Positions 12,797 to 53,680 are shown, counted from the stretch's first letter. The stretch is 64,000 bases of DNA from Candidatus Magasanikbacteria bacterium CG10_big_fil_rev_8_21_14_0_10_36_32 (GCA_002778465.1 PFBV01000002.1:2312-66311); one strand, 5' to 3'. The notes: generated from the sequence alone by a model not told the origin. Made by a program: numbers and translations.

Positions 12797-14278
12797 ATGA
12801 AGCCGGTGAAATTTTTTGAAAAAGTCGCCGGTTCCAAAAGCAAAACGTTTATTTCGTTTTGCTTTTGTTTTATTATGGGGGTTGGTTTTTTTTCTTTTAT
12901 TGAAATATCAGGAACAAAACTTTATTACTTATTAATTTGCGGTTTTGTAATTTTATTTGGTTTGATATTTTGGTGGAAAAATAAAGTGGCGCGGTTGATT
13001 TTATTGTGTTTATTGTTTGTAGTGTTGGGCAGTATGCGTTTTGTTGGTGAAATGATGTCGTCTCAGGCGGTAACAAATAATGATGGTCGGTTATTTTATG
13101 GAATTGTGGACGAAGAACCCAATTTTAAAATTGATAATGCTGAATATATTGTATCAACGGAATTTAATGAAAAAGTCTTAATCCGCCTTCCTCTTTATCC
13201 GCAATATAATTATGGCGATCGTTTAATGATTGATTGTCTTCCGGCACTTCCACAAAATTATCCTTCCGGCATATTTGATTATCGTCGTTATTTATCCAAT
13301 CAAGGAATTTTTTCGGTTTGTTTTAATCCTCCAGTCACAAAAATCGGAATTGATGAAGGTAATTTATTAAAATCAATTTTATTAAAAACCAAGAATATGG
13401 TCAGCGAACAGATAAACAGATTATTTGTTGAACCAGAAAGCAGTTTGTTGGCAGGTTTATTATATGGAGGACGCAGCGGTTTGCCTAAAGAATTGTCTGA
13501 TAGTTTTCGTCGGACAGGTTTGAGTCATATTGTGGCGGTATCAGGTTATAATATTTCCATTATTTCCGTGATATTTTTAAATATTTTAATTGTTCTTGGT
13601 TTTTCTCGTCCAAAAGCTTTTTGGTTGGCGATAATTGGTTTAGTTTCTTTTGTAATATTTACCGGCGCTTCCGCTTCAGTTGTCCGTGCCGGTATTATGG
13701 GATCATTGGTGTTGATTGCCGAAAAAGTTGGTCGGTTATCGGATGCCGGACGGTTGTTGTTTTTAGCCGGCGCTTTAATATTGCTGGTTAATCCGCGTTT
13801 ATTAGTTTGGGACGCAGGTTTTCAGTTGTCTTTTTTGGCTACTTTGGGTTTAATTTATTTAACGCCACATTTATGGTTTTCCAAAAGAAAAATTCCGGAA
13901 TTATTTTTTAACATAGTCAACCCGACTGTGGCGGCGATTATCGCTACCGCGCCGTTGATTATGTTTCAATTTGGACAGTTATCTTTGTCCGCTTTACCGG
14001 CTAATGTTTTAGTAATTTGGATGATACCATGGCTAATGTTGTTTGGATTTTTATCATTGTCTTTGGGGTGGATTTTTTATCCCTTGGGACAAATAATCGC
14101 GTGGTTGACAGGTTTTGGTTTAAAATATGTTATAATGGTGACAAGTTGGTTTTCTGCCCGAACCTGGGCGGCGGTTGAAATGAATATTTCTTGGTGGATG
14201 ATGTTAATAATGTATTTGTTAATTGTTTTATTTTTTTATGCCAAAAGTAAAAATTTTATCATCGGTCGCCGGATATGA
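12797..14278 (+). CDS. comEC: ComEC/Rec2-family competence membrane protein (DUF4131 plus competence domain; no MBL domain in this ORF)
   Basis: Polytopic. The motif ...GLLYGGRSGLPKELSDSFRRTGLSHIVAVSGYNISII... is typical of the ComEC competence domain. Confidence 0.7.
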   Translation: MKPVKFFEKVAGSKSKTFISFCFCFIMGVGFFSFIEISGTKLYYLLICGFVILFGLIFWWKNKVARLILLCLLFVVLGSMRFVGEMMSSQAVTNNDGRLFYGIVDEEPNFKIDNAEYIVSTEFNEKVLIRLPLYPQYNYGDRLMIDCLPALPQNYPSGIFDYRRYLSNQGIFSVCFNPPVTKIGIDEGNLLKSILLKTKNMVSEQINRLFVEPESSLLAGLLYGGRSGLPKELSDSFRRTGLSHIVAVSGYNISIISVIFLNILIVLGFSRPKAFWLAIIGLVSFVIFTGASASVVRAGIMGSLVLIAEKVGRLSDAGRLLFLAGALILLVNPRLLVWDAGFQLSFLATLGLIYLTPHLWFSKRKIPELFFNIVNPTVAAIIATAPLIMFQFGQLSLSALPANVLVIWMIPWLMLFGFLSLSLGWIFYPLGQIIAWLTGFGLKYVIMVTSWFSARTWAAVEMNISWWMMLIMYLLIVLFFYAKSKNFIIGRRI

Positions 14279-14843
14279 TTTGTCTGCCGCCGATTATGAT
14301 AAAAAAGAAAAATATTTAAACAGTTTTGAAAAAAATAAAATTTGGCTATTGTTGGGATATTTATCTGGAAAAAAAATTTTAGATGCCGGAACAGGAACTG
14401 GACGTTTAGCTGTTGAAATGTCAAAAAATGGCGCGGAAGTAACCGCTCTTGATGTGTCGTCAGAAATGTTAAAACAGTTGTCGCGTAAAAGTAATAAAAT
14501 AAAAACCATGATTGGCGATGCTGAATGTTTGCCTTTTGACAAAGAGATTTTTGATTTGGTGACAGCCGCTTTTTTAATCGTTCATTTTAAGGATCCTTCT
14601 CGTTTTTTTGACGAAGCTTATCGTGTATTGAAAGATGGTGGAAGATTATTGGTGACAAATATTAATCAAAAAGAACCGCCAGAAATAAAAACTAAGCAAG
14701 GAGTTATAAAAATTGAATCGTTTTATCATCGCCCGGAAAAAATCAGGGAGATTTTACAGTCATTGGCTTTTACCATTGAAAAAGAAATTATTGTTAAAGA
14801 AGGGGAGAATTGGATAAATCAGATAATAGTAGCTAAAAAATAA
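14238..14843 (+). CDS. class I SAM-dependent methyltransferase (start uncertain; ATG 14238, or TTG 14280 just after the comEC stop)
   Basis: ILDAGTGTGRLAVEM (motif I), VTALDVS (motif II) and DLV (motif III) fit a UbiE/Methyltransf_11-like fold. The 5' end overlaps the comEC 3' end. Confidence 0.6.
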   Translation: MPKVKILSSVAGYDLSAADYDKKEKYLNSFEKNKIWLLLGYLSGKKILDAGTGTGRLAVEMSKNGAEVTALDVSSEMLKQLSRKSNKIKTMIGDAECLPFDKEIFDLVTAAFLIVHFKDPSRFFDEAYRVLKDGGRLLVTNINQKEPPEIKTKQGVIKIESFYHRPEKIREILQSLAFTIEKEIIVKEGENWINQIIVAKK

Positions 14844-14847
14844 TTCA

Positions 14848-15122
14848 CCCCGTTAGAGATATTTATGGTTTATATTTATTTAATGCAGAGCAAGAAAGAT
14901 AATCTTTGGTATACAGGTGCTACTAGAGATTTAAAAAAACGTTTTAAAGAGCATAATGATGGGAAAGTAAAAGCAACAAGGGATAGAAGACCTTTTGTGT
15001 TAATATATTATGAAGCTTGTTTGAATGAACACGATGCTTTTACTCGTGAAAAATATTTAAAGTCAGGAATGGGAAAACGTTATCTTAAAAATCGTTTAAA
15101 ACGTTTTTTATCTCTAACGGGG
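14848..15122. mobile_element. GIY-YIG cassette bracketed by perfect 14-bp terminal inverted repeats (CCCCGTTAGAGATA ... TATCTCTAACGGGG)
   Basis: The left repeat at 14848-14861 lies 3 nt upstream of the ATG. The right repeat at 15109-15122 lies inside the last codons, immediately before the TAA. The 10-nt core CCCCGTTAGA recurs as an inverted pair at 53097/53199. Confidence 0.5.
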
Positions 15123-15125
15123 TAA
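14865..15125 (+). CDS. small GIY-YIG nuclease-family protein (YhbQ/UPF0213-like)
   Basis: 86 aa. IYL...(11 aa)...WYTG...R..KEHN matches the GIY-YIG core (Tyr pair, Arg, Glu, Asn). Paralogous to the ORF at 47285-47527. Confidence 0.7.
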   Translation: MVYIYLMQSKKDNLWYTGATRDLKKRFKEHNDGKVKATRDRRPFVLIYYEACLNEHDAFTREKYLKSGMGKRYLKNRLKRFLSLTG

Positions 15126-15128
15126 ATT

Positions 15129-15986
15129 ATGAAAAAGTTGTTTATAGTTATAGTAGTTGTCCTGCTGTTAAGCGTGGGCTTATTTTATTATATTCATTTT
15201 TCCGCCAATGAAAAAAAATTTGATATTATTTTTTTTGATGTTGGGCAAGGCGATGCAACGCTGGTGCGTTTTGAAGATGGAAGTAAAATGTTGGTAGATT
15301 GCGGACCGGACAGGACTATTTTGAAAAAACTCGGACAATATCTTCCTTTTTATGACCGGACGATTGATTATTTGCTTATTACTCATCCGGACAATGATCA
15401 TTATGGCGGTTGTGTTGACGTATTGCGTCGTTATCAAGTGAAAAATATAATTACAAATAGTGATCGTAAACCGGACGATACTTTTTGGCAAACTTGGCGT
15501 TTTTATGAAGAAAATGAAGATGCAAAAATTTTTATCATTGATGAACCGCAAATTTTTGAAATTGGGAACAATAAAATTGAATTTATTTATCCGGATACAT
15601 CTTTAATTTTATCTTCAGCCGGCGATACCAGCAATAATCAATCGTTGGTTTTTCGTTTAGTTGATAAAAGTGTAAAAGTTTTATTTACCGGAGATATTGA
15701 AGAATCATTGGAAAATGCTTTGATAAAAAAATATTGTTCAATTACAAACTGCCCTTTTTTATCAGCTGATATTTTGAAGGTCGCCCATCATGGCAGTGAC
15801 ACGTCAAGCAGTGAAGAATTTTTGAATGCGTCTAATCCGAAAGCGGCAGTGATTTCCGTCGGTCAGAATCGTTTTGGACATCCGTCTTTGCGAGTTTTGA
15901 AAAAGATGGAACGTTTACCGGTAATTGTTTTGCGCACTGATGAGTATGGCGATATTACATTTGACAAAATTTTAAAAACATGGTAA
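15129..15986 (+). CDS. membrane-anchored metallo-beta-lactamase-fold protein, ComEC C-terminal-domain type
   Basis: N-terminal TM helix. HPDNDHYGG (HxHxDH-like), VAHHGSD and later His residues are consistent with the ComEC/Rec2 MBL nuclease domain. Confidence 0.7.
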   Translation: MKKLFIVIVVVLLLSVGLFYYIHFSANEKKFDIIFFDVGQGDATLVRFEDGSKMLVDCGPDRTILKKLGQYLPFYDRTIDYLLITHPDNDHYGGCVDVLRRYQVKNIITNSDRKPDDTFWQTWRFYEENEDAKIFIIDEPQIFEIGNNKIEFIYPDTSLILSSAGDTSNNQSLVFRLVDKSVKVLFTGDIEESLENALIKKYCSITNCPFLSADILKVAHHGSDTSSSEEFLNASNPKAAVISVGQNRFGHPSLRVLKKMERLPVIVLRTDEYGDITFDKILKTW

Positions 15987-15997
15987 TATATTACTAG

Positions 15998-16029
15998 AAA
16001 CGCTTCCATAATGAAGCGTTTTAATTTTT
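15998..16029 (+). terminator. rho-independent terminator
   Basis: AAACGCTTC-CATAAT-GAAGCGTTT hairpin followed by a T-run. Confidence 0.6.
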
Positions 16030-16055
16030 GACTTAATTTAATTTATTTTTTATAT

Positions 16056-17309
16056 ATGTCATCAGAAATATCAAAAGCCATTCAGGCATTATGTGCTGAA
16101 AAAAATCTCTCGTTAGAGGTGGTTATGGAAACCATTGAAACAGCTTTGTCAGCTGCTTATCGTAAGGATTTTGGCAATAAACAGCAAAACATCAAGGTTA
16201 AGTTTGATCCCGAAACAGCTGGAATAAAAGTGTGGGATGTTAAAACGGTTGTTGAAGATATTGAGGAAGAGACTTTGGAAGCAGCTCAAGAGGAATTAAC
16301 CGTTCGCCGTGAAAAAGCTCGAGCTGAAGGCCGTGAATTAACAGAAGAAGAAACTGAGGACTTGCCGCGTTTTAATCCAAAAACTGAAATAATGCAAACC
16401 CCAGCTAAAGAATTTAAGAAAAAAGCGAAAATTGGCGATGTTTTGGAAATTTCCTTGGAAGTACCCGGTGAATTTGGTAGAATGGCCGCTCAAACAGCCA
16501 AACAAGTTATTATTCAAAAAATTCGCGAGGCGGAACGAAATATGGTATTTGATGATTACAAAGATTATGAAGGTAAAATTATTGTTGGTACCATTCAAAG
16601 AGTTGAGGGTCGTAAAGTTTTGGTGGATTTAGGTCGTGGCACCGGTCTTTTACCGTCTGATCAACAGGTGAGTCGTGATCATTATCGCCCCGGCAGTCGA
16701 ATGAAATTTTATGTTGCTTCAGTTACTATGTCTATTCGCGGTCCGGAAATTATTTTATCTCGTAGTGATATAGGCATGGTACGTGAAATTTTTAAACAAG
16801 AAATTCCGGAAATCAGCGACGGTGCTATTTTGATTAAAGGTGTGGCTCGAGATGCTGGCGCCCGTTCCAAAATTTCTGTTTATACAGAAGACAGTTCGGT
16901 TGATCCAATAGGTTCATGTATTGGACAAAGAGGTGGACGTATTAATACTATTATTGAAGAATTAAACGGAGAAAAAATTGATGTGATTAGATACAGTGAG
17001 GATCCTGCAGAGTATATAGCTCACGCCTTGTCTCCGGCAAAAATTTCTCGTGTGGAAATTATCAGCCAAGAAGAACAAAACGCAGAAGTTTATGTTCCGG
17101 CCGATCAGTTTTCTTTAGCTATTGGACGAGGCGGTCAAAATGTTCGTTTAGCTTCCCAATTAACTGATTGGAAAATAAAAGTTATTGAAGAAGGCGGGTC
17201 AAAAGAAATATCAAGTGAAGATGTGAGCGAAGAAAATCCTGGTGAAGAAGAATTAGCCGTAGCTGATGAGGTGAAAGAAGAACCAAAAGAATCTGCTGAA
17301 ATAAAATAA
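16056..17309 (+). CDS. nusA: transcription termination/antitermination factor NusA
   Basis: N-terminal domain, S1 and two KH regions (…GTIQRVEGRKVLVDLG…; …IGSCIGQRGGRINTI…; …SLAIGRGGQNVRLASQLTDWKIKV…). Acidic C-terminal tail. Confidence 0.85.
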   Translation: MSSEISKAIQALCAEKNLSLEVVMETIETALSAAYRKDFGNKQQNIKVKFDPETAGIKVWDVKTVVEDIEEETLEAAQEELTVRREKARAEGRELTEEETEDLPRFNPKTEIMQTPAKEFKKKAKIGDVLEISLEVPGEFGRMAAQTAKQVIIQKIREAERNMVFDDYKDYEGKIIVGTIQRVEGRKVLVDLGRGTGLLPSDQQVSRDHYRPGSRMKFYVASVTMSIRGPEIILSRSDIGMVREIFKQEIPEISDGAILIKGVARDAGARSKISVYTEDSSVDPIGSCIGQRGGRINTIIEELNGEKIDVIRYSEDPAEYIAHALSPAKISRVEIISQEEQNAEVYVPADQFSLAIGRGGQNVRLASQLTDWKIKVIEEGGSKEISSEDVSEENPGEEELAVADEVKEEPKESAEIK

Positions 17310-19060: not shown

Positions 19061-20403
19061 TATTTAATATGTTATCTCGCCTTACTAATTATCTTATCCT
19101 CTTATTTTTATTTGCGTTGCCTTTTCAAACCCGTTGGATTATTGAATATGGAATTTTAAATAATCGTCCATGGGAATTTGGGACTATCAGTTTGTATGGT
19201 ACGGAATTTTTTTTATGGCTGATAGTGATTTTGACCGGCATTCGGATTTTTGGCCGACCGGATTTTTGGAAATCATTCTCAAATTGTAGAATCAATGCTG
19301 ATTATTTTAAAATGCACAAAAAAAATATATTGGCTGTTTTGATTTTTTTATTCAGCACGGCTGTTTTTATACGTTCCGGCAATCCGATATCATGGCAATT
19401 TACCACTTGGTTTTTGGGAGGAATATGTTTAATGATTTCAATAGCTGTATCTGAATTATCTTTTTCCCGTGCCGGCATGACATTGTGGTTAAGCGGGGTT
19501 GTGCAAGGAGTATTGGCAGTTCAACAATTTTTTTATCAAAAAATTATTGGTTCAAAATGGTTAGGTATGTCCGCACAAAATTCAAGTGACTCAGGAGTTA
19601 GTGTGGTGCAGTTTGGTGACGAACGCTGGCTGAGAGCCTATGGCAGTTTTGGATGGCCTAATTCTTTGGGAATTTATTTAGCAGTTATCTTTGTTTTGGG
19701 TTTAATTTTATATTTTTATTTTTCTAAAACTAAATGGCGAATATTAATCCTGGTGGGACAATTGATTATTCTAACGGGGTTATTATTGTCTTTTTCCCGC
19801 GGTGCTTGGTTGGCGGCAGTTGGCGGTTTGCTTATTTTTGGGTTGATTGCTTGGAATAATCTGCCTTTTGAATTTACGCGGCGTAAATTTTATAGTCAAT
19901 TTGTAAAACAGTTGGCAGTTTATGCGGTATTAGTAATCAGTCTGGTGACGATTTATTTTCCAGTTTTTACAAATCGGTTTAATACAGGTAATTATTTGGA
20001 ATATTTATCTATAACGGAACGGCAAGATCAATTGAATGTTGCTGGTCAGATGATATCGGACAATTTATTTTTTGGTGTTGGCCCCGGATTGTACACTAAT
20101 TATTTGGCTAGATATTTTGTTTCGCCGACATATGGAGTTTATCAGCCTGTCCATAATATTTTTTTATTAGCACTGGCTGAATTGGGTATATTTGTGTTTT
20201 TATTTATTTTGGTCTTTGTCTTTTGGTTGATTAAAAAAATCGGTCGCGCCGGACCGATTTATTTTTCCGTTTTGACAGTTTTGTTTTTAGCCGGTTTTTA
20301 TGATCATTTTCTTTGGAGTTTATACGCCGGTCAGTTGATTTGGTGGGTGGTTTTGGCTTTAGGATTAATGTTAAAAAAATCGCAATCCAATATTGAAAAA
20401 TAA
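19039..20403 (+). CDS. polytopic membrane protein, O-antigen ligase (Wzy_C)-like
   Basis: About 10 TM helices. FSRGAWLAAVGGLLIFGL lies in a large loop, as in the WaaL/O-antigen polymerase family. Confidence 0.45.
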   Translation: MEKQNKLIFNMLSRLTNYLILLFLFALPFQTRWIIEYGILNNRPWEFGTISLYGTEFFLWLIVILTGIRIFGRPDFWKSFSNCRINADYFKMHKKNILAVLIFLFSTAVFIRSGNPISWQFTTWFLGGICLMISIAVSELSFSRAGMTLWLSGVVQGVLAVQQFFYQKIIGSKWLGMSAQNSSDSGVSVVQFGDERWLRAYGSFGWPNSLGIYLAVIFVLGLILYFYFSKTKWRILILVGQLIILTGLLLSFSRGAWLAAVGGLLIFGLIAWNNLPFEFTRRKFYSQFVKQLAVYAVLVISLVTIYFPVFTNRFNTGNYLEYLSITERQDQLNVAGQMISDNLFFGVGPGLYTNYLARYFVSPTYGVYQPVHNIFLLALAELGIFVFLFILVFVFWLIKKIGRAGPIYFSVLTVLFLAGFYDHFLWSLYAGQLIWWVVLALGLMLKKSQSNIEK

Positions 20404-47221: not shown

Positions 47222-47273
47222 GGAGAGGTGGCTTCTGAGCTCCTGCCTGCCGGTAGGCAGGGGTCGAAAGCGG
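47222..47273 (+). pseudogene. duplicated tRNA-Ser 5' fragment (nt 1-12 and 18-29 of the tRNA) interrupted by a 20-bp palindrome
   Basis: GGAGAGGTGGCT and GGTCGAAAGCGG are identical to the intact tRNA-Ser at 47529. CCTGCCTGCCGGTAGGCAGG is inserted at the D-loop position. Confidence 0.55.
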
Positions 47274-47284
47274 TAATAAAATTT

Positions 47285-47527
47285 ATGTATTGCGTGTATT
47301 TTTTACAAAGTCTGAAAGATAAAGGTTTGTACATCGGAAAAACGAATAATATTAAACGTCGGTTATCTGAACACAACGCCGGTAAAGTTCAATCGACAAA
47401 AAGTAGAAAACCTTTTATTTTGTTGGGATTAGAAAAATACCAAACAGAAAAAGAATGTTTGGCGGCAGAATTAGAATGGAAAAAAGGATATAAACGCGAA
47501 CAATTAAAAGTTAGATATAGTCTATAA
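47285..47527 (+). CDS. small GIY-YIG nuclease-family protein (paralogue of 14865-15125)
   Basis: VYF...LYIGKT...RRLSEHNAGKV core. Shares the Y.L.S.KD..LY.G.T....R...HN.GKV..T..R.PF.L pattern with the other copy. Ends 1 nt before the tRNA-Ser. Confidence 0.65.
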   Translation: MYCVYFLQSLKDKGLYIGKTNNIKRRLSEHNAGKVQSTKSRKPFILLGLEKYQTEKECLAAELEWKKGYKREQLKVRYSL

Positions 47528-47528
47528 T

Positions 47529-47624
<96 letters not shown>

Positions 47625-47967: not shown

Positions 47968-48003
47968 AATTTTTTAACCAAGATTTTATTTAACGGGGTA
48001 AAT

Positions 48004-49569
48004 ATGAATAATCATTTAAAATCAATTTTAAAAATCCTGTTAATCGTTTTGTCCTACACTTTCATCATCTGCATTTTTTCCAACAGCTATGACTATGATT
48101 TAGGCTGGCATTTGAGATTTGGCAAAGAATTTTGGGAAAGTTTGAAATTTTCTTTTACCGACACTTACACTTGGCAACATTTTGGACAGTTTTGGACAAA
48201 TCATGAATGGGGAGGTGATTTATTGTTTTGGCCGATTTACAACGATCTTTCTTATTTTGGCTTAATTTTATTAGTCGCTTTGTCGCCGTTGGCGGCGTTT
48301 TTAATTGTTTTGAAAATTTTTCAGCCGCGATGGACGATAGCCGGATTGATTTTAATTTTTGTTTTTTTATGGACAATGCCGCATATCCTGATTTTGCGTT
48401 TGGCAATGTTAACGCCGTTATTTTTGGCAATTCTTTGGTATTTTTTGGAAAAATTTCCTAAGCAAAATAATTATTTTTTTTGGCCGTTGGTATTATGGTT
48501 TTGGTCAATTTTGCATGGCAGTTGGATTTTAGGTTTTATTGTGATTGGTATTTATAGTTTTGGAAATATTTTAAATTTGGTGGCGAAAAAATATTGCCCG
48601 CGTTTTCATAATCCAAAATTATGGTCAATTAAAGATATTCGGAATGCTATTGTTTGGACTTTGATTTCCGCCGGCGTGATTTGCATTAATCCTTATGGTT
48701 GGCATATTTGGCAAGAAGTTATAAATTATTTTTCTTTGTCATTTTACAAATTGCATATCTTGGAATGGGTGCCGAGTTATGTTTATCCGATTTATTGGAA
48801 ACCGCTGTTTATTATGGGCGCCGGCATTCCGTTGGCAGTTTGGGGTTTTGTTAAAAAAAGAGTGACTTTACCGCAAATTCTCTTATTCGCCGCTCTTTGG
48901 TTGGCCGCTTGGCAATATAAACGGCAGGCGATTTTATTTTTATTGGTTTGTCTGTCGTTGTTTTCAGGTTGTTGGGAAATAGTAAAATCAAGGTTATTAA
49001 ATCGTTTTACAATCAAAGTTGTTTATTTTTTTCCGATTATTGCCGTGTTTTTATTAATCGTCGGTTATTTAATCAGGATTGATTGGACAAAAGATATTTG
49101 GAATAATCAAAGTTTATTATCTGCTAACACCATGCCGGTTGAAGCGGTTGAATTTTTGAAGGAACGAACTGTCGGACACACAACTTTTGTATTTAATGAA
49201 TTCAGCTGGGGCGGATATATGAATTGGACATGGCCGGAGGGGTTGGTTTTTTTTGACGGTCGTGGCGCCGCCACTTGGATGTATGATAAAAAAACAACAA
49301 TGACTGAAAAATATTTTAATATTAAATATGAAGCCGGCGGATTTGAATTTTTAGAAGCTTCTCCGGCTGAATATATCATACTCAGTAAAGATGTTATCGC
49401 TTATCCGCCACCGGATAAATTAAACCGGTTGTTTTTTGGACAAAAAGATTTGGATAAAATTTTAAAACCCGCTTCGCCACAGCTTCAGCAAATGCTTGAC
49501 CGGAGCCAAAGTTGGCAAAATATCTATGAAGATGAAGTTTGTAATGTTTGGCAACGGTTCAGCCGATAA
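48004..49569 (+). CDS. polytopic membrane protein (possible GT-C-like glycosyltransferase)
   Basis: At least 10 TM helices. A DYD motif in the first loop. Confidence 0.45.
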   Translation: MNNHLKSILKILLIVLSYTFIICIFSNSYDYDLGWHLRFGKEFWESLKFSFTDTYTWQHFGQFWTNHEWGGDLLFWPIYNDLSYFGLILLVALSPLAAFLIVLKIFQPRWTIAGLILIFVFLWTMPHILILRLAMLTPLFLAILWYFLEKFPKQNNYFFWPLVLWFWSILHGSWILGFIVIGIYSFGNILNLVAKKYCPRFHNPKLWSIKDIRNAIVWTLISAGVICINPYGWHIWQEVINYFSLSFYKLHILEWVPSYVYPIYWKPLFIMGAGIPLAVWGFVKKRVTLPQILLFAALWLAAWQYKRQAILFLLVCLSLFSGCWEIVKSRLLNRFTIKVVYFFPIIAVFLLIVGYLIRIDWTKDIWNNQSLLSANTMPVEAVEFLKERTVGHTTFVFNEFSWGGYMNWTWPEGLVFFDGRGAATWMYDKKTTMTEKYFNIKYEAGGFEFLEASPAEYIILSKDVIAYPPPDKLNRLFFGQKDLDKILKPASPQLQQMLDRSQSWQNIYEDEVCNVWQRFSR

Positions 49570-50799: not shown

Positions 50800-52797
50800 A
50801 TGGCCGAAGGTGCAATTAAAAAAATCGCGGAAAAAATACAGCTTATTCCAGCCAGGAAAAATAATTGGAAAACCGTCGTAATAATATTGGCGGTTGTTTT
50901 TGGTTTATTGGCGGTTGTGTTCGGCGTATCAGTCGTTTATTCCAAAACATACGTTGGAAAAGTTTATCCCGGAATTTATCTTGGGCATTATGATTTGTCA
51001 GGTTGGACAGCCGATGATGTAAAAAAGTTTGTTGATAGTTTTAGCCGACGTTTATCTCAGGAAGGATTGGTTTATATGTTTGAGCAAAACGGGCAATCGC
51101 AAAGAGTAGCGGTTAATCCGGCGCTTATTTCCAGCGAAGCGGCCATTGAAACGATTTTTTTAAGCAATAAAGAATTTGCCGGTGAAATTTTAAATATTGG
51201 CAGGGGAGAATCTTTTTGGTTTAAAAAAATGTGGCTGCCGTTGTGGTATAGAATAAAAACGATTCATTTGTCTTTGCCGGTGAAAATTGACCGTCAGAAT
51301 TTTCAAGGGATTATAGAAAACGCGTTAGAGGGATATGTGATTGAACCGCGTGACGCCAATATTCATTTGAGCAGTATTAATCCGTTGGCTTATGAGCTGA
51401 CTTTAGAACAATCAGGTGAAGTTTTTGATTATGAACAAATTATAGATGATACAGTTCAAAAATTATCTGAGCCGTCGCTGGAATCAATCGTTATTTCAAA
51501 ACGGTTGGTTATTCCATCGGTGACAAAAAAAGATTTAGCGGCAGCTGAAGAAAATATTTTAAGGGCGTTTAATTTTGGTCCGGCGATATTATCCCATACC
51601 GATACCGATGCCAAAGAAACTCAAGTTTGGTCGGTTGGTCCGGAATTATTGGTAAAATGGTTAAAACCTGTTTATGATTCCACCGGGAAAATTAAGTTGG
51701 AATTAAAAGAAAAAGAAGTGGGTCAATATTTGGAAAATTTGAGGGTGATTGTTGATCAGCCGGCTGAGGATGCTAAATTTTCAATGGAAAATGGCAAGGT
51801 GAGTGAATTTAAAAATGGTCATTCCGGACGCAGTTTGAATGTGGCTAAAACTTACGGTGAATTAAATAATTTATTTATCAAAATAAGCCAAGGAGAAAAT
51901 GTTGATAAAACAGTTATTAATTTAGCGGTTGACCAAACCGAACCGAAATTGAAATTATCCGATATTAATGATTATGGAATTACCGGAATATTCGGCGTTG
52001 GTACTTCAACTTTTTATGATAGTCATAATAACCGCATTAAAAATATTGCCAACGCAGTTGAACGGTTGAATGGTATAATTATCAAGCCGGGGGAAGAATT
52101 TTCTTCTATTAAATATGCCGGTTCATTTACTGAAGAAAATGGATTTTTACCGGAAGAAATAATCAAAGGCAATAAAATTATTAAAGAAGTCGGAGGAGGA
52201 ATGTGTCAGATTGGCACCACTTTGTTCAGAATGGCCATGAATTCCGGTATGCCGATTACAGAACGAACCAATCATTCTTTGGTGGTTGGTTATTATGCAG
52301 ATCCAATTAATGGAAATCCGGGTACGGACGCTACTTTGTATGAACCAATTTTGGATTTTAAATTTATGAATGATACCGGCGGTTATTTGTTGTTGCAAAC
52401 GGAAATTAATTATAAAAAACAAATGTTGATTTTTACTTTGTGGGGAACACCTGATGGTCGTTCTGGATTTTATAGCCGTCCGATAGTGAGTAAATGGATT
52501 CCAGCCGGTTTGCCGCAAGAAATAAAAACAACCACTTTAAAACCTGGTGAGACAAAATGTCAAAATGCATTTCGTGGCGCGAACGCCAGTTTTACATATA
52601 CTCGGTTTAATCAATCGGGTGAAAAAATTGAACGGGTATTTTCCAGTTATTACCGTCCGTTGCCAAAAATGTGTATGACTGGCATTAGTCCGAATGAATG
52701 CCCTGACGGAAAAACAACTTGTGATATTATTGTTAAAAATACAGCCACCAGTACGCCTTCGGCCACACCGAATTCTCAACCTCTTTTAGCTGACTAG
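50800..52797 (+). CDS. VanW-domain protein, membrane-anchored
   Basis: N-terminal TM helix. VanW core ...VGGGMCQIGTTLFRMAMNSGMPITERTNHS. Confidence 0.7.
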   Translation: MAEGAIKKIAEKIQLIPARKNNWKTVVIILAVVFGLLAVVFGVSVVYSKTYVGKVYPGIYLGHYDLSGWTADDVKKFVDSFSRRLSQEGLVYMFEQNGQSQRVAVNPALISSEAAIETIFLSNKEFAGEILNIGRGESFWFKKMWLPLWYRIKTIHLSLPVKIDRQNFQGIIENALEGYVIEPRDANIHLSSINPLAYELTLEQSGEVFDYEQIIDDTVQKLSEPSLESIVISKRLVIPSVTKKDLAAAEENILRAFNFGPAILSHTDTDAKETQVWSVGPELLVKWLKPVYDSTGKIKLELKEKEVGQYLENLRVIVDQPAEDAKFSMENGKVSEFKNGHSGRSLNVAKTYGELNNLFIKISQGENVDKTVINLAVDQTEPKLKLSDINDYGITGIFGVGTSTFYDSHNNRIKNIANAVERLNGIIIKPGEEFSSIKYAGSFTEENGFLPEEIIKGNKIIKEVGGGMCQIGTTLFRMAMNSGMPITERTNHSLVVGYYADPINGNPGTDATLYEPILDFKFMNDTGGYLLLQTEINYKKQMLIFTLWGTPDGRSGFYSRPIVSKWIPAGLPQEIKTTTLKPGETKCQNAFRGANASFTYTRFNQSGEKIERVFSSYYRPLPKMCMTGISPNECPDGKTTCDIIVKNTATSTPSATPNSQPLLAD

Positions 52798-52831
52798 CTG
52801 TGTTGGCAGGATAATTTAAACTAAAAAACAA

Positions 52832-52864
52832 ACCACCCCGCATTATTTTGCGGGGTGGTTTAAT
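52832..52864 (+). terminator. rho-independent terminator
   Basis: ACCACCCCGC-ATTATTTT-GCGGGGTGGT followed by a T-run. Confidence 0.65.
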
Positions 52865-53096
52865 TGATATTGGGGGAATGAACCCCCTAGAGTTCCGTAT
52901 TCAAGAAGATGTGTCAAAGGTGGAGATAAGCCGTGGCCTATGCAGACCGTTAACACATCCCCATGCTTGTGGTGAATACGGGAAATTGCTCGTTTTTTCT
53001 CGTTAAAAGGGGCAATTTCTCGTATTCTTACAGCATTGGATGTCCGTAGATTTTCAAACAACAAAGTATTGTATCACATCTAAATCATTTTGTCAA

Positions 53097-53211
53097 CCCC
53101 GTTAGAAAAGCCAATTGAAAAATTTTAGTAATCTTAGCCTAAAAATTGAATAATACCCTGTGGATAAACCTTTAGAAAAGCATCTTTTCGTGGAATAATT
53201 TTCTAACGGGG
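53097..53211. mobile_element. ORF-less miniature element bounded by inverted repeats CCCCGTTAGAAAA / TTTTCTAACGGGG (MITE-like relative of the GIY-YIG cassette repeats)
   Basis: The 13-bp arms share the 10-nt core CCCCGTTAGA with the repeats flanking the GIY-YIG gene at 14848/15109. The ~90-nt interior has no ORF. Confidence 0.45.
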
Positions 53212-53221
53212 TCAAGCCCGA

Positions 53222-53241
53222 CCTGCCTGCCGGCAGGCAGG
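53222..53241. repeat. perfect 20-bp palindrome CCTGCCTGCCGGCAGGCAGG
   Basis: One-mismatch copy at 47242-47261, inside the tRNA-Ser 5' fragment next to the second GIY-YIG gene. Confidence 0.55.
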
Positions 53242-53424
53242 CGTAAAAAAGTCGGGGTCCCGACCCCCCAAAGGGGCGTCGGGAGGGATCAATTTAGTCA
53301 TTTTTTGGTTTAAACTGGGGAAAAATATTATTTTTGGCTAATGTTAGGGTTAAAATCTGTATTATCCGTATTTTGTTTATTAATTCAAGTCAATGTGTTA
53401 ATTTTATTTATTTTTATTTCAGAA

Positions 53425-53456
53425 TAAAACAAAAACCCCGCATTTACGGGGTTTGA
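53425..53456 (-). terminator. rho-independent terminator for the minus-strand small gene
   Basis: AAACCCCG-CATTTAC-GGGGTTT with the T-run on the minus strand. Confidence 0.55.
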
Positions 53457-53473
53457 AGAACAATAAAGGTATT

Positions 53474-53680
53474 TTATTTGCGATTGTGTATGATGTTATA
53501 GAAAAATTCAGCGCTGACTGCGCCAAGGGCTATACCAAACAGAATACCAATCGCGCCCAATGAATTTTTGAATAAGAATCCGATGACTCCTCCGGCCACA
53601 GCTCCAATGAGCATAATTGATTTGTCCAACATTATTTGTCTCCTTGGTTTTGGTTGCGTATTAAAAAGAACATTGTTCAA
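53474..53680 (-). CDS. small Gly-rich two-TM protein, GlsB/YeaQ/YmgE (transglycosylase-associated) family-like
   Basis: 68 aa. GAVAGGVIGFLF...GAIGILFGIALGAV GxxxG-rich helices. Confidence 0.45.
   Translation of the reverse strand: MNNVLFNTQPKPRRQIMLDKSIMLIGAVAGGVIGFLFKNSLGAIGILFGIALGAVSAEFFYNIIHNRK

What the first reader, a model, noticed from the sequence alone, without database searches (positions are those of the whole stretch)
14848..15122. GIY-YIG nuclease gene bracketed exactly by 14-bp terminal inverted repeats between the comEC competence-domain gene and the ComEC-type MBL gene
CCCCGTTAGAGATA lies 3 nt before the start codon, and its perfect reverse complement TATCTCTAACGGGG occupies the last codons before the stop. 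An 86-aa GIY-YIG ORF framed by terminal inverted repeats looks like a minimal autonomous mobile cassette. It sits, together with a methyltransferase gene, between the competence-domain part and the MBL part of ComEC.
Basis: seen in the sequence. Interest (0 to 1): 0.8.

Follow-up and report, generated by a model that had tools for sequence, protein, structure and literature searches.

The report
Tiny GIY-YIG nuclease mobile element
The 290-bp feature is one copy of a very small mobile DNA element, found in many bacterial phyla, whose only gene is an 86-residue GIY-YIG nuclease enclosed by inverted repeats. The same repeats also bound swarms of gene-less hairpin elements that insert with a 4-bp target duplication, a kind of bacterial transposable element I could not find described.

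Summary
The 14-nt perfect inverted repeat is really 22 nt with one mismatch (14840-14861 / 15109-15130). It encloses an 86-aa GIY-YIG ORF.

It is not chance. In 76 of 78 homologous loci from many phyla, the same repeat (core CCCGTTAGAG) brackets the gene. The two arms show many independent compensatory changes, and the synonymous sites of the last four codons are frozen.

The same ends bound many gene-less hairpin elements of 25-130 nt, one of them at window 53097-53211. Of 148 such elements, 80 have a perfect 4-nt direct repeat (mostly TNNA or CNNG). A relative carries one inside its MBL gene, and the window shows the matching empty site.

Relatives keep the ComEC-MTase-MBL-NusA synteny without the cassette. 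One relative holds a deleted copy that is 96.5% identical at the same site, while its flanking genes are only 71-77% identical.

So this is a mobile-element family. Whether the nuclease alone drives mobility is inferred, not shown.

The closest known system is the Ssn nuclease with its NTS/SRM repeats (Chenal 2025). The published SRM motif is absent here, and the protein is nearer to UPF0213/Slx1. I rate it a new variant of a known kind. The cassette did not split comEC.

The parts
14840..14861 (+). Left terminal inverted repeat. The perfect core is 14848-14861 (CCCCGTTAGAGATA). The outer part overlaps the MTase stop codon.
   Evidence: The same core lies 2-16 nt upstream of the ATG in 76/78 homologous loci.
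14865..15125 (+). 86-aa single-domain GIY-YIG nuclease gene. Its TAA stop (15123-15125) lies outside the repeat core, in the flank.
   Evidence: Pfam E 1.1e-16. Y5, Y16, R26, H30 and E50 are invariant in 34 homologs. AF2 model pLDDT 91.7, with nearest folds UPF0213 and Slx1. The stop is supplied by the flank in 56/78 loci.
15109..15130 (+). Right terminal inverted repeat. It covers the last codons (L) S L T G, the stop codon, and 5 nt reaching into the MBL start codon.
   Evidence: The synonymous positions of TCT CTA ACG GGG are nearly invariant across phyla, and the position before them covaries with the left arm.
14844..14847 (.). Left flanking tetranucleotide TTCA, at the position where family members carry the 4-bp target duplication.
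   Evidence: Its partner on the right is TAAA (15123-15126), so the duplication is imperfect here. The TTCA/TAAA combination recurs in 9 loci.
15123..15126 (.). Right flanking tetranucleotide TAAA. It supplies the stop codon of the nuclease ORF.
53093..53215 (.). Gene-less sister element: 115 nt at 53097-53211 with 13-nt inverted ends CCCCGTTAGAAAA. It is flanked by a perfect 4-nt direct repeat TCAA (53093-53096 and 53212-53215). It lies in a ~650-nt intergenic region.
15961..15964 (.). Unoccupied target TTGA in the 3' end of the MBL gene. This is the empty-site counterpart of a 97-nt gene-less element inserted in relative L083.
   Evidence: Removing the L083 element and one TTGA restores ...GDIVFDNLIELW*, colinear with the window's ...GDITFDKILKTW*.

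Best explanation
The feature is a complete copy of a very small mobile element bounded by terminal inverted repeats (about 275 bp from CCCC to GGGG). Its only gene encodes an 86-residue single-domain GIY-YIG nuclease of the UPF0213/Slx1-like branch.

The element's right end is the last 12-14 nt of the ORF, and the ORF has no stop codon of its own. The same ends bound numerous gene-less hairpin derivatives (MITE-like, 25-130 nt). These insert at YNNR tetranucleotides, mostly TNNA or CNNG, and duplicate those 4 bp.

Shown here:
- The two arms are kept complementary.
- The end sequence is conserved at the nucleotide level across phyla.
- Diverged nuclease subfamilies carry different ends and have their own gene-less derivatives.
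- Family members are present or absent at orthologous sites, with a 4-bp duplication.
- This cassette is an insertion into a conserved ComEC-MTase-MBL-NusA gene order.

Inferred by analogy with Ssn nucleases, which bind a hairpin repeat in ssDNA and cut beside it even when the two halves of the hairpin are supplied separately, and with Slx1, which cuts branched DNA:
- The nuclease recognises the stem formed when the two arms pair, or the two identical duplex ends.
- It nicks at the base of that stem.
- The 4-nt offset of the cuts gives the duplication.
- Host replication or repair enzymes do the joining.

Insertions survive mainly just 5' of a co-directional host gene. There the flank provides the nuclease's stop codon, and the host start codon stays within about 12 nt or overlaps the stop.
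For: Conservation of the repeat:
- It brackets the gene in 76/78 loci from Patescibacteria, Omnitrophota, Planctomycetota, Thermodesulfobacteriota, Elusimicrobiota, Nitrospirota, Clostridia and others.
- Position -1 is C-G in 41 loci and T-A in 27. Position +11 is T-A in 40, C-G in 18 and A-T in 18, with 76/78 Watson-Crick pairs. Permutation gives p<5e-5, and at least 18 and 23 changes are needed on a tree of the ORF interiors.
- Compensatory changes occur even where they alter the protein.

Gene-less derivatives and duplications:
- 80 of 148 unique copies have a perfect 4-nt direct repeat abutting CCCC/GGGG. In the first 85 copies the figure was 50, against a permutation mean of 6.9. No 5-, 6- or 8-nt duplication was seen.
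- L083 and the window form a filled/empty pair.

This cassette as an insertion:
- Empty sites exist in L088, L086/87 and L083.
- L085 has a 177-nt internally deleted copy at the same junction. It matches the window at 110/114 nt, while MTase, MBL and NusA match at 73, 71 and 77% nt.
- The closest full-length relative lies between prfA and tsaC.

Link between nuclease and ends:
- In 1.4 Mb, adjacent left-right end pairs are at most 130 nt apart (178 pairs) or 251-320 nt apart (73 pairs, the nuclease gene). None exceeds 380 nt, so no transposase-sized partner was seen.
- Three diverged nuclease subfamilies have different ends at the same positions; two of them (the L019b and L045b types) also have matching gene-less pairs in the loci searched, L015b has none.

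Other support:
- The long-range stem appears in both the MFE and the centroid fold, for ssDNA and for RNA, with z about -5.
- The fold and sequence are nearest to UPF0213 and Slx1.
- Ssn biochemistry is described in PMC11893778.
Against: - No GIY-YIG enzyme is known to catalyse strand transfer, and a 4-bp duplication is typical of DDE transposases.
- The window copy itself lacks a clean duplication (TTCA/TAAA). Only 29/78 gene-bearing copies have one, and the recurrent TTCA/TAAA and TTTA/TGAA flank pairs are unexplained.
- No nuclease gene was found in 751 kb of contigs chosen for the short elements. About one would be expected, so this is weak evidence.
- The sampled DNA is biased toward the elements, so a rare trans-acting transposase could have been missed.
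- Nothing here separates recognition of ssDNA from recognition of duplex DNA.
Confidence: 0.68

Rival explanations
1. Passenger model. The inverted-repeat elements are MITEs moved in trans by an unidentified conventional (DDE-type) transposase. The GIY-YIG gene is merely cargo of one MITE lineage, i.e. a 'mobile insertion cassette'.
For: - A 4-bp duplication at a loosely palindromic target is classic for DDE transposases (established knowledge of IS5-like families).
- GIY-YIG nucleases hydrolyse DNA but are not known to join it.
- No nuclease gene was found in 751 kb of contigs bearing the short elements.
Against: - No element longer than 380 nt with these ends was found in 1.4 Mb.
- The right end is built into the last codons of the nuclease ORF in all phyla.
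- Three diverged nuclease subfamilies carry their own different ends, and two of them have matching gene-less pairs. That pattern is expected for an enzyme and its sites, not for cargo.
- Ssn relatives do recognise their flanking repeats (PMC11893778).
Confidence: 0.15
2. Domesticated Ssn-like host system. The nuclease cuts incoming or replicating ssDNA at the dispersed hairpins, for example to modulate natural transformation. On this reading its position in the comEC gene set and in pilin genes reflects function, and the elements are no longer mobile.
For: - N. meningitidis SsnA limits transformation by DNA that carries its NTS hairpins, and ssn genes are flanked by those repeats.
- The window copy lies between comEC genes.
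- 4 of 78 copies are fused to type IV pilin-like genes.
Against: - Genomic contexts differ in nearly all 78 loci.
- Relatives lack the cassette at this site.
- The cassette DNA is 96.5% identical between hosts whose flanking genes are 71-77% identical. Together with clean 4-bp duplications and a filled/empty pair, this shows recent mobility.
- The pilin cases are explained by the target GG|TTTA|C inside the G-F-T codons.
- This rival is not exclusive of the best explanation.
Confidence: 0.1
3. RNA-level device. The two arms pair in the mRNA to occlude the nuclease start region and the downstream gene's ribosome-binding region, or to create an RNase III site. On this reading the repeat is a regulatory stem rather than a transposon end.
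For: - The RNA fold closes the cassette with the long-range stem.
- The GGGG of the right arm sits 7-9 nt before the MBL ATG.
- Covariation alone cannot tell RNA pairing from DNA pairing.
Against: - Gene-less copies with 4-bp duplications, some inside coding regions and lying in either orientation, are not explained by an mRNA stem.
- The end sequence itself, not just the pairing, is frozen across phyla.
- Mismatches show no bias toward G.U over C.A.
- Rfam has no match.
- An RNA role could exist in addition to mobility.
Confidence: 0.04
4. Free-standing homing endonuclease gene. It cuts one specific empty site and is copied in by recombinational repair.
For: - Near-identical cassette DNA occupies the same MTase/MBL junction in two diverged hosts.
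- GIY-YIG enzymes are classic homing endonucleases. There is a weak TIGR01453 match, 23.9 bits against a cut-off of 56.
Against: - The protein is 86 aa with no DNA-binding domain.
- There are more than 70 different insertion contexts.
- Target duplications and gene-less derivatives with unrelated interiors are not products of homing.
Confidence: 0.03

Closest known systems
Ssn nucleases with NTS/SRM hairpin repeats (Chenal et al. 2025, Nat Commun, PMC11893778; CDD cd10448)
   Same: - A single-domain GIY-YIG protein of about 90 aa.
- The gene is flanked on both sides by its own repeat in inverted orientation, and further copies of the repeat are dispersed in the genome.
- The repeat and the enzyme co-diversify.
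- The authors already noted that the layout resembles an insertion sequence.
- The proteins are homologous: hhalign probability 97.6%, E 3.8e-12, against SRM-flanked Ssn-type proteins from Rhizobium and Azospirillum.
   Different: - The published SRM motif is absent: 0 hits in the window and 0/77 loci.
- Here each flank is only half of a hairpin. The gene sits in the loop and the 3' half is coding sequence.
- The protein is nearer to UPF0213/YazA (45% identity, E 2.8e-14) than to Ssn-type proteins (32%), and its C-terminal third differs.
- The repeats here show 4-bp target duplications, filled/empty sites and internal-deletion derivatives. The Ssn paper's main text does not use the words MITE or duplication.
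- The hosts are mainly Patescibacteria, Omnitrophota and other uncultured phyla. [quoted passage not shown]
UPF0213 proteins (B. subtilis YazA, E. coli YhbQ, PDB 1ZG2/1YWL) and the Slx1 nuclease domain
   Same: - Closest in sequence and fold.
- Slx1 is a structure-selective nuclease for branched DNA (established knowledge). That fits recognition of a stem base.
   Different: - yazA sits in a housekeeping gene row (trmNF-yazA-rsmI) with no flanking repeats evident from the annotation.
- UPF0213 proteins lack the conserved KRFLSLTG C-terminus.
RAYT transposases with REP/REPIN sequences, and IS200/IS605
   Same: - A small nuclease gene flanked by inverted copies of a short palindromic repeat, which is also dispersed as gene-less hairpins or doublets.
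- Recognition of a DNA structure is likely.
   Different: - Those enzymes are HUH/Y1 transposases that form covalent intermediates and make no target duplication (established knowledge).
- Here the protein is GIY-YIG, and a 4-bp duplication is made.
Bacterial MITEs and their parent insertion sequences (e.g. IS5-type, with 4-bp duplications)
   Same: - Terminal inverted repeats of 10-14 nt and a 4-bp target duplication.
- Bimodal sizes.
- Derivation of a short copy from a gene-bearing copy by internal deletion at a microhomology (L085).
   Different: - The only gene ever found between these ends is an 86-aa GIY-YIG nuclease, not a DDE, HUH, serine or tyrosine transposase.
- At about 275-290 bp the gene-bearing form is far smaller than any known autonomous IS (about 700 bp and up, established knowledge).
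Rickettsia palindromic elements (RPE)
   Same: Short palindromic selfish elements that can sit inside protein-coding genes without destroying them. Compare the in-frame pilin fusions and the 31 candidate in-gene insertions.
   Different: This resemblance is recalled from memory only. It was not tested here, and no sequence relationship was examined.

Membership tests
GIY-YIG nuclease superfamily | Match to the GIY-YIG catalytic domain profile | tested here: met
   PF01541, E 1.1e-16, 61.3 bits against a cut-off of 22.6, residues 2-68.
GIY-YIG nuclease superfamily | Conserved catalytic residues (the two Tyr, Arg, His/Tyr and the metal-binding Glu) and the beta-beta-alpha-alpha-beta-alpha fold | tested here: met
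   Y5, Y16, R26, H30 and E50 are invariant in 34 homologs. AF2 model pLDDT 91.7 with the expected order of strands and helices. Nearest solved folds are UPF0213, Slx1, I-TevI and UvrC. The assignment of these residues to catalytic roles rests on established knowledge, not on a test here.
Ssn family (Chenal 2025) | Single-domain GIY-YIG protein of at most 150 aa | tested here: met
   86 aa with one domain.
Ssn family (Chenal 2025) | Belongs to the cd10448 clade, or gives blastp E<1e-10 to N. meningitidis SsnA over 75% of its length | tested here: inconclusive
   Neither CDD nor the SsnA sequence is available here. As a proxy I used SRM-flanked Ssn-type proteins from Rhizobium and Azospirillum. 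They align to the family profile with E 3.8e-12 and 32% identity over 66 of 86 columns. UPF0213 YazA scores better: E 2.8e-14 and 45% identity.
Ssn family (Chenal 2025) | Gene flanked within 500 bp by the SRM motif HGTCWYN(0-2)YYVSBRHN(0-5)WNVSBRGN(0-2)RNCYNB | tested here: not met
   0 matches in the 64-kb window and 0 of 77 homologous loci. The regex does find the NTS example and the repeats around the Rhizobium and Azospirillum genes.
Ssn family (Chenal 2025) | Cognate repeat in inverted orientation on both sides of the gene, and dispersed elsewhere in the genome | tested here: met
   The bracket is present in 76/78 loci. There are 30 gene-less pairs near the genes, one of them in the window. 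Here, however, each flank is half a hairpin rather than a whole one.
Ssn family (Chenal 2025) | Site-specific cleavage of ssDNA only, beside the repeat | not testable with these tools
   This needs purified protein and oligonucleotide substrates.
Insertion sequence / MITE family (TIR transposon) | Terminal inverted repeats shared by gene-bearing and gene-less copies | tested here: met
   (perfect ends of 10-14 nt in 122 of 124 short copies).
Insertion sequence / MITE family (TIR transposon) | Target-site duplication of fixed length | tested here: met
   For the family: a 4-nt perfect duplication in 80/148 short copies, plus 21 more with 3 of 4 matching. In the first 85 copies the count was 50 against a permutation mean of 6.9, and none had a 5-, 6- or 8-nt duplication. 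For gene-bearing copies the count is 29/78 against a permutation mean of 7.2. For the window's own copy it is not met (TTCA vs TAAA).
Insertion sequence / MITE family (TIR transposon) | Presence/absence polymorphism at orthologous sites | tested here: met
   The cassette is absent in L088, L086/87 and L083, and present in deleted form in L085. The short element in the L083 MBL gene has its empty site in the window and in L085.
Insertion sequence / MITE family (TIR transposon) | Element-encoded transposase of a known catalytic class (DDE, HUH, serine or tyrosine) | tested here: not met
   The only ORF between the ends is GIY-YIG.
RAYT/REPIN and IS200/IS605 | HUH/Y1 transposase; no target duplication | tested here: not met
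   The protein is GIY-YIG, and a 4-bp duplication is present.
Free-standing GIY-YIG homing endonuclease | Nuclease domain joined to a DNA-binding domain; one conserved target site | tested here: not met
   86 aa with a single domain. TIGR01453 scores 23.9 bits against a cut-off of 56. There are more than 70 different genomic contexts.

The most novel reading that the evidence does not exclude
An 86-residue GIY-YIG nuclease is the sole element-encoded protein of a previously unrecognised class of prokaryotic transposable element. It would be the smallest autonomous mobile element known (about 275-290 bp). It would move itself and swarms of hairpin MITEs by structure-guided staggered cleavage that leaves 4-bp YNNR duplications, and it would spread horizontally across Patescibacteria, Omnitrophota and many other phyla. 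By extension, the Ssn/NTS systems of Neisseria, Wolbachia and Rickettsia would be domesticated or active relatives of the same kind of transposon.
Probability: 0.4. Interest if true: 0.9.

Novelty: new variant of a known kind. Interest (0 to 1): 0.8.

Why it matters
All established families of bacterial insertion sequences use DDE, HUH, serine or tyrosine enzymes. A transposon whose only protein is a minimal GIY-YIG nuclease would add a new mechanistic class and set a new lower size limit for an autonomous element.

It would also give the recently discovered Ssn ssDNA nucleases an evolutionary and mechanistic context. Their authors could only hypothesise an IS-like origin. This family supplies target duplications, empty sites and deletion derivatives.

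There are practical consequences too:
- The elements are a source of many natural nuclease / recognition-sequence pairs, useful for ssDNA or structure-specific cutting.
- They are a marker of horizontal exchange among uncultured, reduced-genome bacteria.
- They are an annotation hazard, because ORFs read through into flanks, pilin genes become fused, and host genes get truncated.

Tried and rejected
- **Rfam.** The whole window at gathering threshold, and 14700-15300 and 52700-53500 at E<=1, gave nothing relevant.
- **Published SRM motif.** No match anywhere.
- **Viral contigs.** Only two distant partial relatives, so no sign of phage carriage.
- **Plasmid collection.** Only 3 hits at E<=1e-3. 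The best was B. subtilis yazA.
- **Translation from the duplicated host start codon.** Only 7 of 21 upstream ATGs are in frame and open, which is what chance gives. Idea dropped.
- **Duplications longer than 4 nt, or shifted element boundaries.** No signal except that expected from the 4-nt duplication.
- **G.U versus C.A mismatch asymmetry, to separate RNA pairing from DNA pairing.** Too few mismatches in the core, and both types occur at the outer positions. Uninformative.
- **Cassette splitting comEC, or arriving with the methyltransferase.** Rejected. A stand-alone MBL protein of about 285 aa and the MTase are conserved in relatives without the cassette.
- **Inversion switch.** The cassette would read the same after inversion, because the reverse complement of the left arm also encodes LSLTG*. 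There is no recombinase and no inverted variants were seen, so I did not pursue it.
- **Clean duplication for the window copy.** I could not reconstruct one. The native left flank in relatives (TAATTTG/A) suggests an original TTTA target whose right copy changed to TAAA, creating the stop codon. This is speculation.

Full report
**1. The observation.**
- The 14-nt sequence CCCCGTTAGAGATA lies at 14848-14861. Its exact reverse complement lies at 15109-15122.
- The repeat extends outward to 22 nt with one mismatch: 14840-14861 / 15109-15130.
- The left arm ends 3 nt before the ATG at 14865. The right arm is the last 14 nt of an 86-codon ORF whose TAA stop is at 15123-15125.
- The ORF is a GIY-YIG domain (Pfam E 1.1e-16).
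- Its neighbours are ComEC (DUF4131 + Competence), a class I SAM methyltransferase and an MBL-fold protein.
- The source is a Candidatus Magasanikbacteria metagenome-assembled genome.

**2. The repeat is a conserved feature, not chance.**
- The protein has thousands of relatives. A profile of 34 homologs matches representatives of 3,007 clusters (50% identity) at E<=1e-10.
- Relatives share 67-80% identity across Patescibacteria, Omnitrophota, Planctomycetota, Thermodesulfobacteriota, Elusimicrobiota, Nitrospirota, Clostridia and others.
- In 76 of 78 usable loci the gene has the same bracket. The core CCCGTTAGAG lies 2-16 nt upstream of the ATG, and its complement forms the last codons, TCT CTA ACG GGG.
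- The paired zone runs from position -2 to +11 relative to the CCCG.
- Two positions in that zone vary, and they vary together. Position -1 is C-G in 41 loci and T-A in 27. Position +11, a codon wobble position, is T-A in 40, C-G in 18 and A-T in 18, with 76/78 Watson-Crick pairs.
- No permutation out of 20,000 reached these counts. At least 18 and 23 changes are needed on a tree of the ORF interiors.
- Rarer compensatory changes even alter the protein, for example Ser to Phe, Val or Thr.
- The synonymous sites of the final four codons are essentially frozen. The constraint is therefore on the nucleic acid, and the C-terminal peptide SLTG may be a by-product of it.
- The long-range stem closes the cassette in both the MFE and the centroid fold, as ssDNA and as RNA, with z about -5.

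**3. The same ends bound gene-less elements that insert with a 4-bp duplication.**
- Around the homologous genes I found 30 adjacent left-right end pairs only 27-126 nt long. One is in the window at 53097-53211, flanked by TCAA on both sides.
- Of 148 unique short elements in those contigs, 80 have a perfect 4-nt direct repeat abutting CCCC/GGGG, and 21 more match at 3 of 4 positions.
- In the first 85 elements the count of perfect repeats was 50, against a permutation mean of 6.9 and a maximum of 16 in 5,000 permutations. None had a 5-, 6- or 8-nt duplication.
- The duplicated tetranucleotides are TNNA (58), CNNG (14) and others (8).
- One case is a filled/empty pair:
  - Relative L083, whose MBL protein is 74% identical to the window's, carries a 97-nt element inside the 3' end of its MBL gene, flanked by TTGA.
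  - The window (TTGA at 15961-15964) and L085 show the uninterrupted sequence.
  - Removing the element and one TTGA restores an ORF ending ...GDIVFDNLIELW*, colinear with the window's ...GDITFDKILKTW*.
- In 1.4 Mb of fetched DNA, adjacent end pairs fall into two size classes: at most 130 nt (178 pairs) and 251-320 nt (73 pairs, all carrying the nuclease gene). There is one pair each at 131-250 nt and at 379 nt, and none larger.

**4. The window's cassette is an insertion.**
- Relatives keep the order ComEC - methyltransferase - MBL - NusA - YidC.
- In L088 the methyltransferase stop and the MBL start are 1 nt apart (AAGTAAAATG), with no cassette.
- L086/87 have an unrelated 104-nt spacer there. 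L083 has no cassette in the 101 nt upstream of MBL.
- L085 has, at exactly the same junction, a copy with a 177-nt internal deletion joined at a TTTA microhomology. It matches the window at 110 of 114 nt, while the flanking methyltransferase, MBL and NusA genes are only 73, 71 and 77% identical.
- The cassette DNA is therefore much younger than the split between the two hosts. It also shows one route from a gene-bearing copy to a short copy.
- The closest full-length relative (88% aa) sits between prfA and tsaC in another contig from the same sample as L085.
- Stand-alone MBL proteins of about 285 aa are the rule in this group. The cassette therefore did not split comEC.

**5. Anatomy of gene-bearing copies.**
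- The ORF has no stop codon of its own. In 56/78 loci the first three bases of the right flank (TAA, TGA or TAG) provide it. In the other loci the ORF reads on into host DNA.
- In 54/78 loci a co-directional host ORF starts between -1 and +30 nt after codon 86. In 22 of them it overlaps as GGGATGA.
- In 4 further loci the nuclease ORF is fused in frame to a type IV pilin-like gene exactly at the prepilin motif (...LSLTG|FTLIE...), at a GG|TTTA|C target.
- Perfect 4-nt duplications are seen in 29/78 gene-bearing copies, against a permutation mean of 7.2.
- The window copy has TTCA on the left and TAAA on the right. That same pair recurs in 9 unrelated loci, and TTTA/TGAA recurs in 8. I cannot explain this.

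**6. The link between the nuclease and the ends.**
- Three diverged paralogous subfamilies (51-60% identity) have the same layout but different repeat sequences: CCCCCACACCAAATTATT, CCTCTCAACTTTTTGAGAA and ACCCTGTTAAATAA.
- Two of them (the L019b and L045b types) also have gene-less pairs with their own ends in the loci searched; L015b does not.
- This co-diversification is what is expected of an enzyme and its recognition sites.
- The AF2 model is confident (pLDDT 91.7). It shows the GIY-YIG core plus a long basic C-terminal helix.
- Its nearest solved relatives are UPF0213 proteins and Slx1, a nuclease for branched DNA.

**7. What is known.**
- Chenal et al. 2025 (PMC11893778) described Ssn, a family of GIY-YIG proteins of about 94 aa (CDD cd10448).
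- Ssn proteins bind a hairpin repeat (NTS/SRM) in ssDNA only and cut beside it, even when the two halves of the hairpin come from separate oligonucleotides.
- Their genes are flanked by the repeat on both sides, and the repeat is dispersed in hundreds of copies.
- The authors noted the resemblance to insertion sequences and to RAYT/REP. Their main text does not use the words MITE or duplication.
- I tested membership directly:
  - Their SRM pattern finds the repeats around bona fide Ssn-type genes that I fetched from Rhizobium and Azospirillum plasmids. It has no match in the window or near any of 77 homologous genes.
  - The present family is homologous to those Ssn-type proteins (hhalign E 3.8e-12, 32% identity over 66 columns). 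It is closer to UPF0213 YazA (E 2.8e-14, 45%).
- I therefore do not file the family as Ssn. It works like Ssn in layout, and probably in how it recognises its repeat.
- Four further literature searches found no description of a bacterial GIY-YIG element with terminal inverted repeats and MITEs.

**8. Mechanism.**
- *Shown:*
  - complementary, sequence-conserved ends;
  - gene-less derivatives;
  - 4-bp duplications at YNNR targets whose outer bases are complementary, so that they extend the stem;
  - empty and filled sites;
  - recent horizontal spread.
- *Inferred:* the nuclease recognises the stem made by the two arms, or the two identical duplex ends. It nicks both strands at the base of that stem with a 4-nt offset, and host enzymes complete the joining.
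- *The main rival:* an unseen conventional transposase moves these elements and the nuclease gene is cargo. The size distribution and the co-diversification argue against this, but neither excludes it.
- A host role like that of SsnA in transformation, and an RNA-level role for the stem, could exist in addition.

**9. Verdict.** The finding is a new variant of a known kind, the Ssn-type pairing of a nuclease with its repeats. It carries the first clear signatures of transposition for such a system, and it may represent a new mechanistic class of transposon.

Noticed in passing
window 47222-47624: A second, diverged GIY-YIG gene (47285-47527, 39% identical to the first) ends 1 nt before tRNA-Ser(GCT) at 47529-47624. 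Upstream of it, 47222-47273 repeats the first 29 nt of that tRNA, interrupted by a 20-nt palindrome. This looks like an insertion into the tRNA gene that rebuilt the tRNA's 5' part. It has no CCCCGTTAGAG ends.
   Followed up: partly
window 47242-47261 and 53222-53241: The palindrome CCTGCCTGCCGG(C/T)AGGCAGG occurs twice. One copy lies inside the duplicated tRNA fragment. The other lies 7 nt after the gene-less element's duplication. It may be another short repeat family.
   Followed up: no
window 47990-48006: TTAACGGGGTAAATATG is a solo motif resembling the element's right end plus its usual flank. It sits directly before the start of ORF 48004-49569. It could be a relic end or a favoured target.
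   Followed up: no
window 19770-19779: TCTAACGGGG occurs inside the Wzy_C-type ORF with no partner arm. It is probably coding sequence (..ILTG..) that happens to match.
   Followed up: partly
window 12797-17309; loci L085, L086, L088: The ComEC competence-domain protein and a stand-alone MBL protein of about 285 aa are separate genes with a SAM methyltransferase between them, followed by NusA and YidC. This arrangement is conserved across related Patescibacteria, so the split ComEC is ancestral in this lineage.
   Followed up: yes
loci L034, L045, L071, L082: The nuclease ORF is fused in frame to type IV pilin-like genes exactly at the prepilin motif (...LSLTG|FTLIE...). Prepilin peptidase could in principle release an intact pilin from such a fusion, which would make the insertion harmless.
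   Followed up: partly
locus L030 1-400; locus L081 2981-4503: L030 has tandem nuclease cassettes whose junction, TCTCTAACGGGGTAAACCCCGTTAGAGA, is a perfect palindrome. L081 has four gene-less elements clustered around a nuclease gene whose own ends are disrupted, which suggests nested insertions.
   Followed up: no
78 homologous loci, including window 14844-14847 / 15123-15126: The flank pairs TTCA/TAAA (9 loci) and TTTA/TGAA (8 loci) recur in unrelated genomic contexts. They are neither direct nor perfect inverted repeats, and the facing bases are always C.A or T.G. This is unexplained.
   Followed up: partly
metagenome loci L100-L219: For 31 short elements with a perfect duplication, removing the element leaves an open frame of at least 80 codons across the site. 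This hints that many sit inside genes. The test was crude, using stop-to-stop frames in six frames.
   Followed up: no
window 63809-64000: The 5' end of a 16S rRNA gene runs off the end of the window.
   Followed up: no
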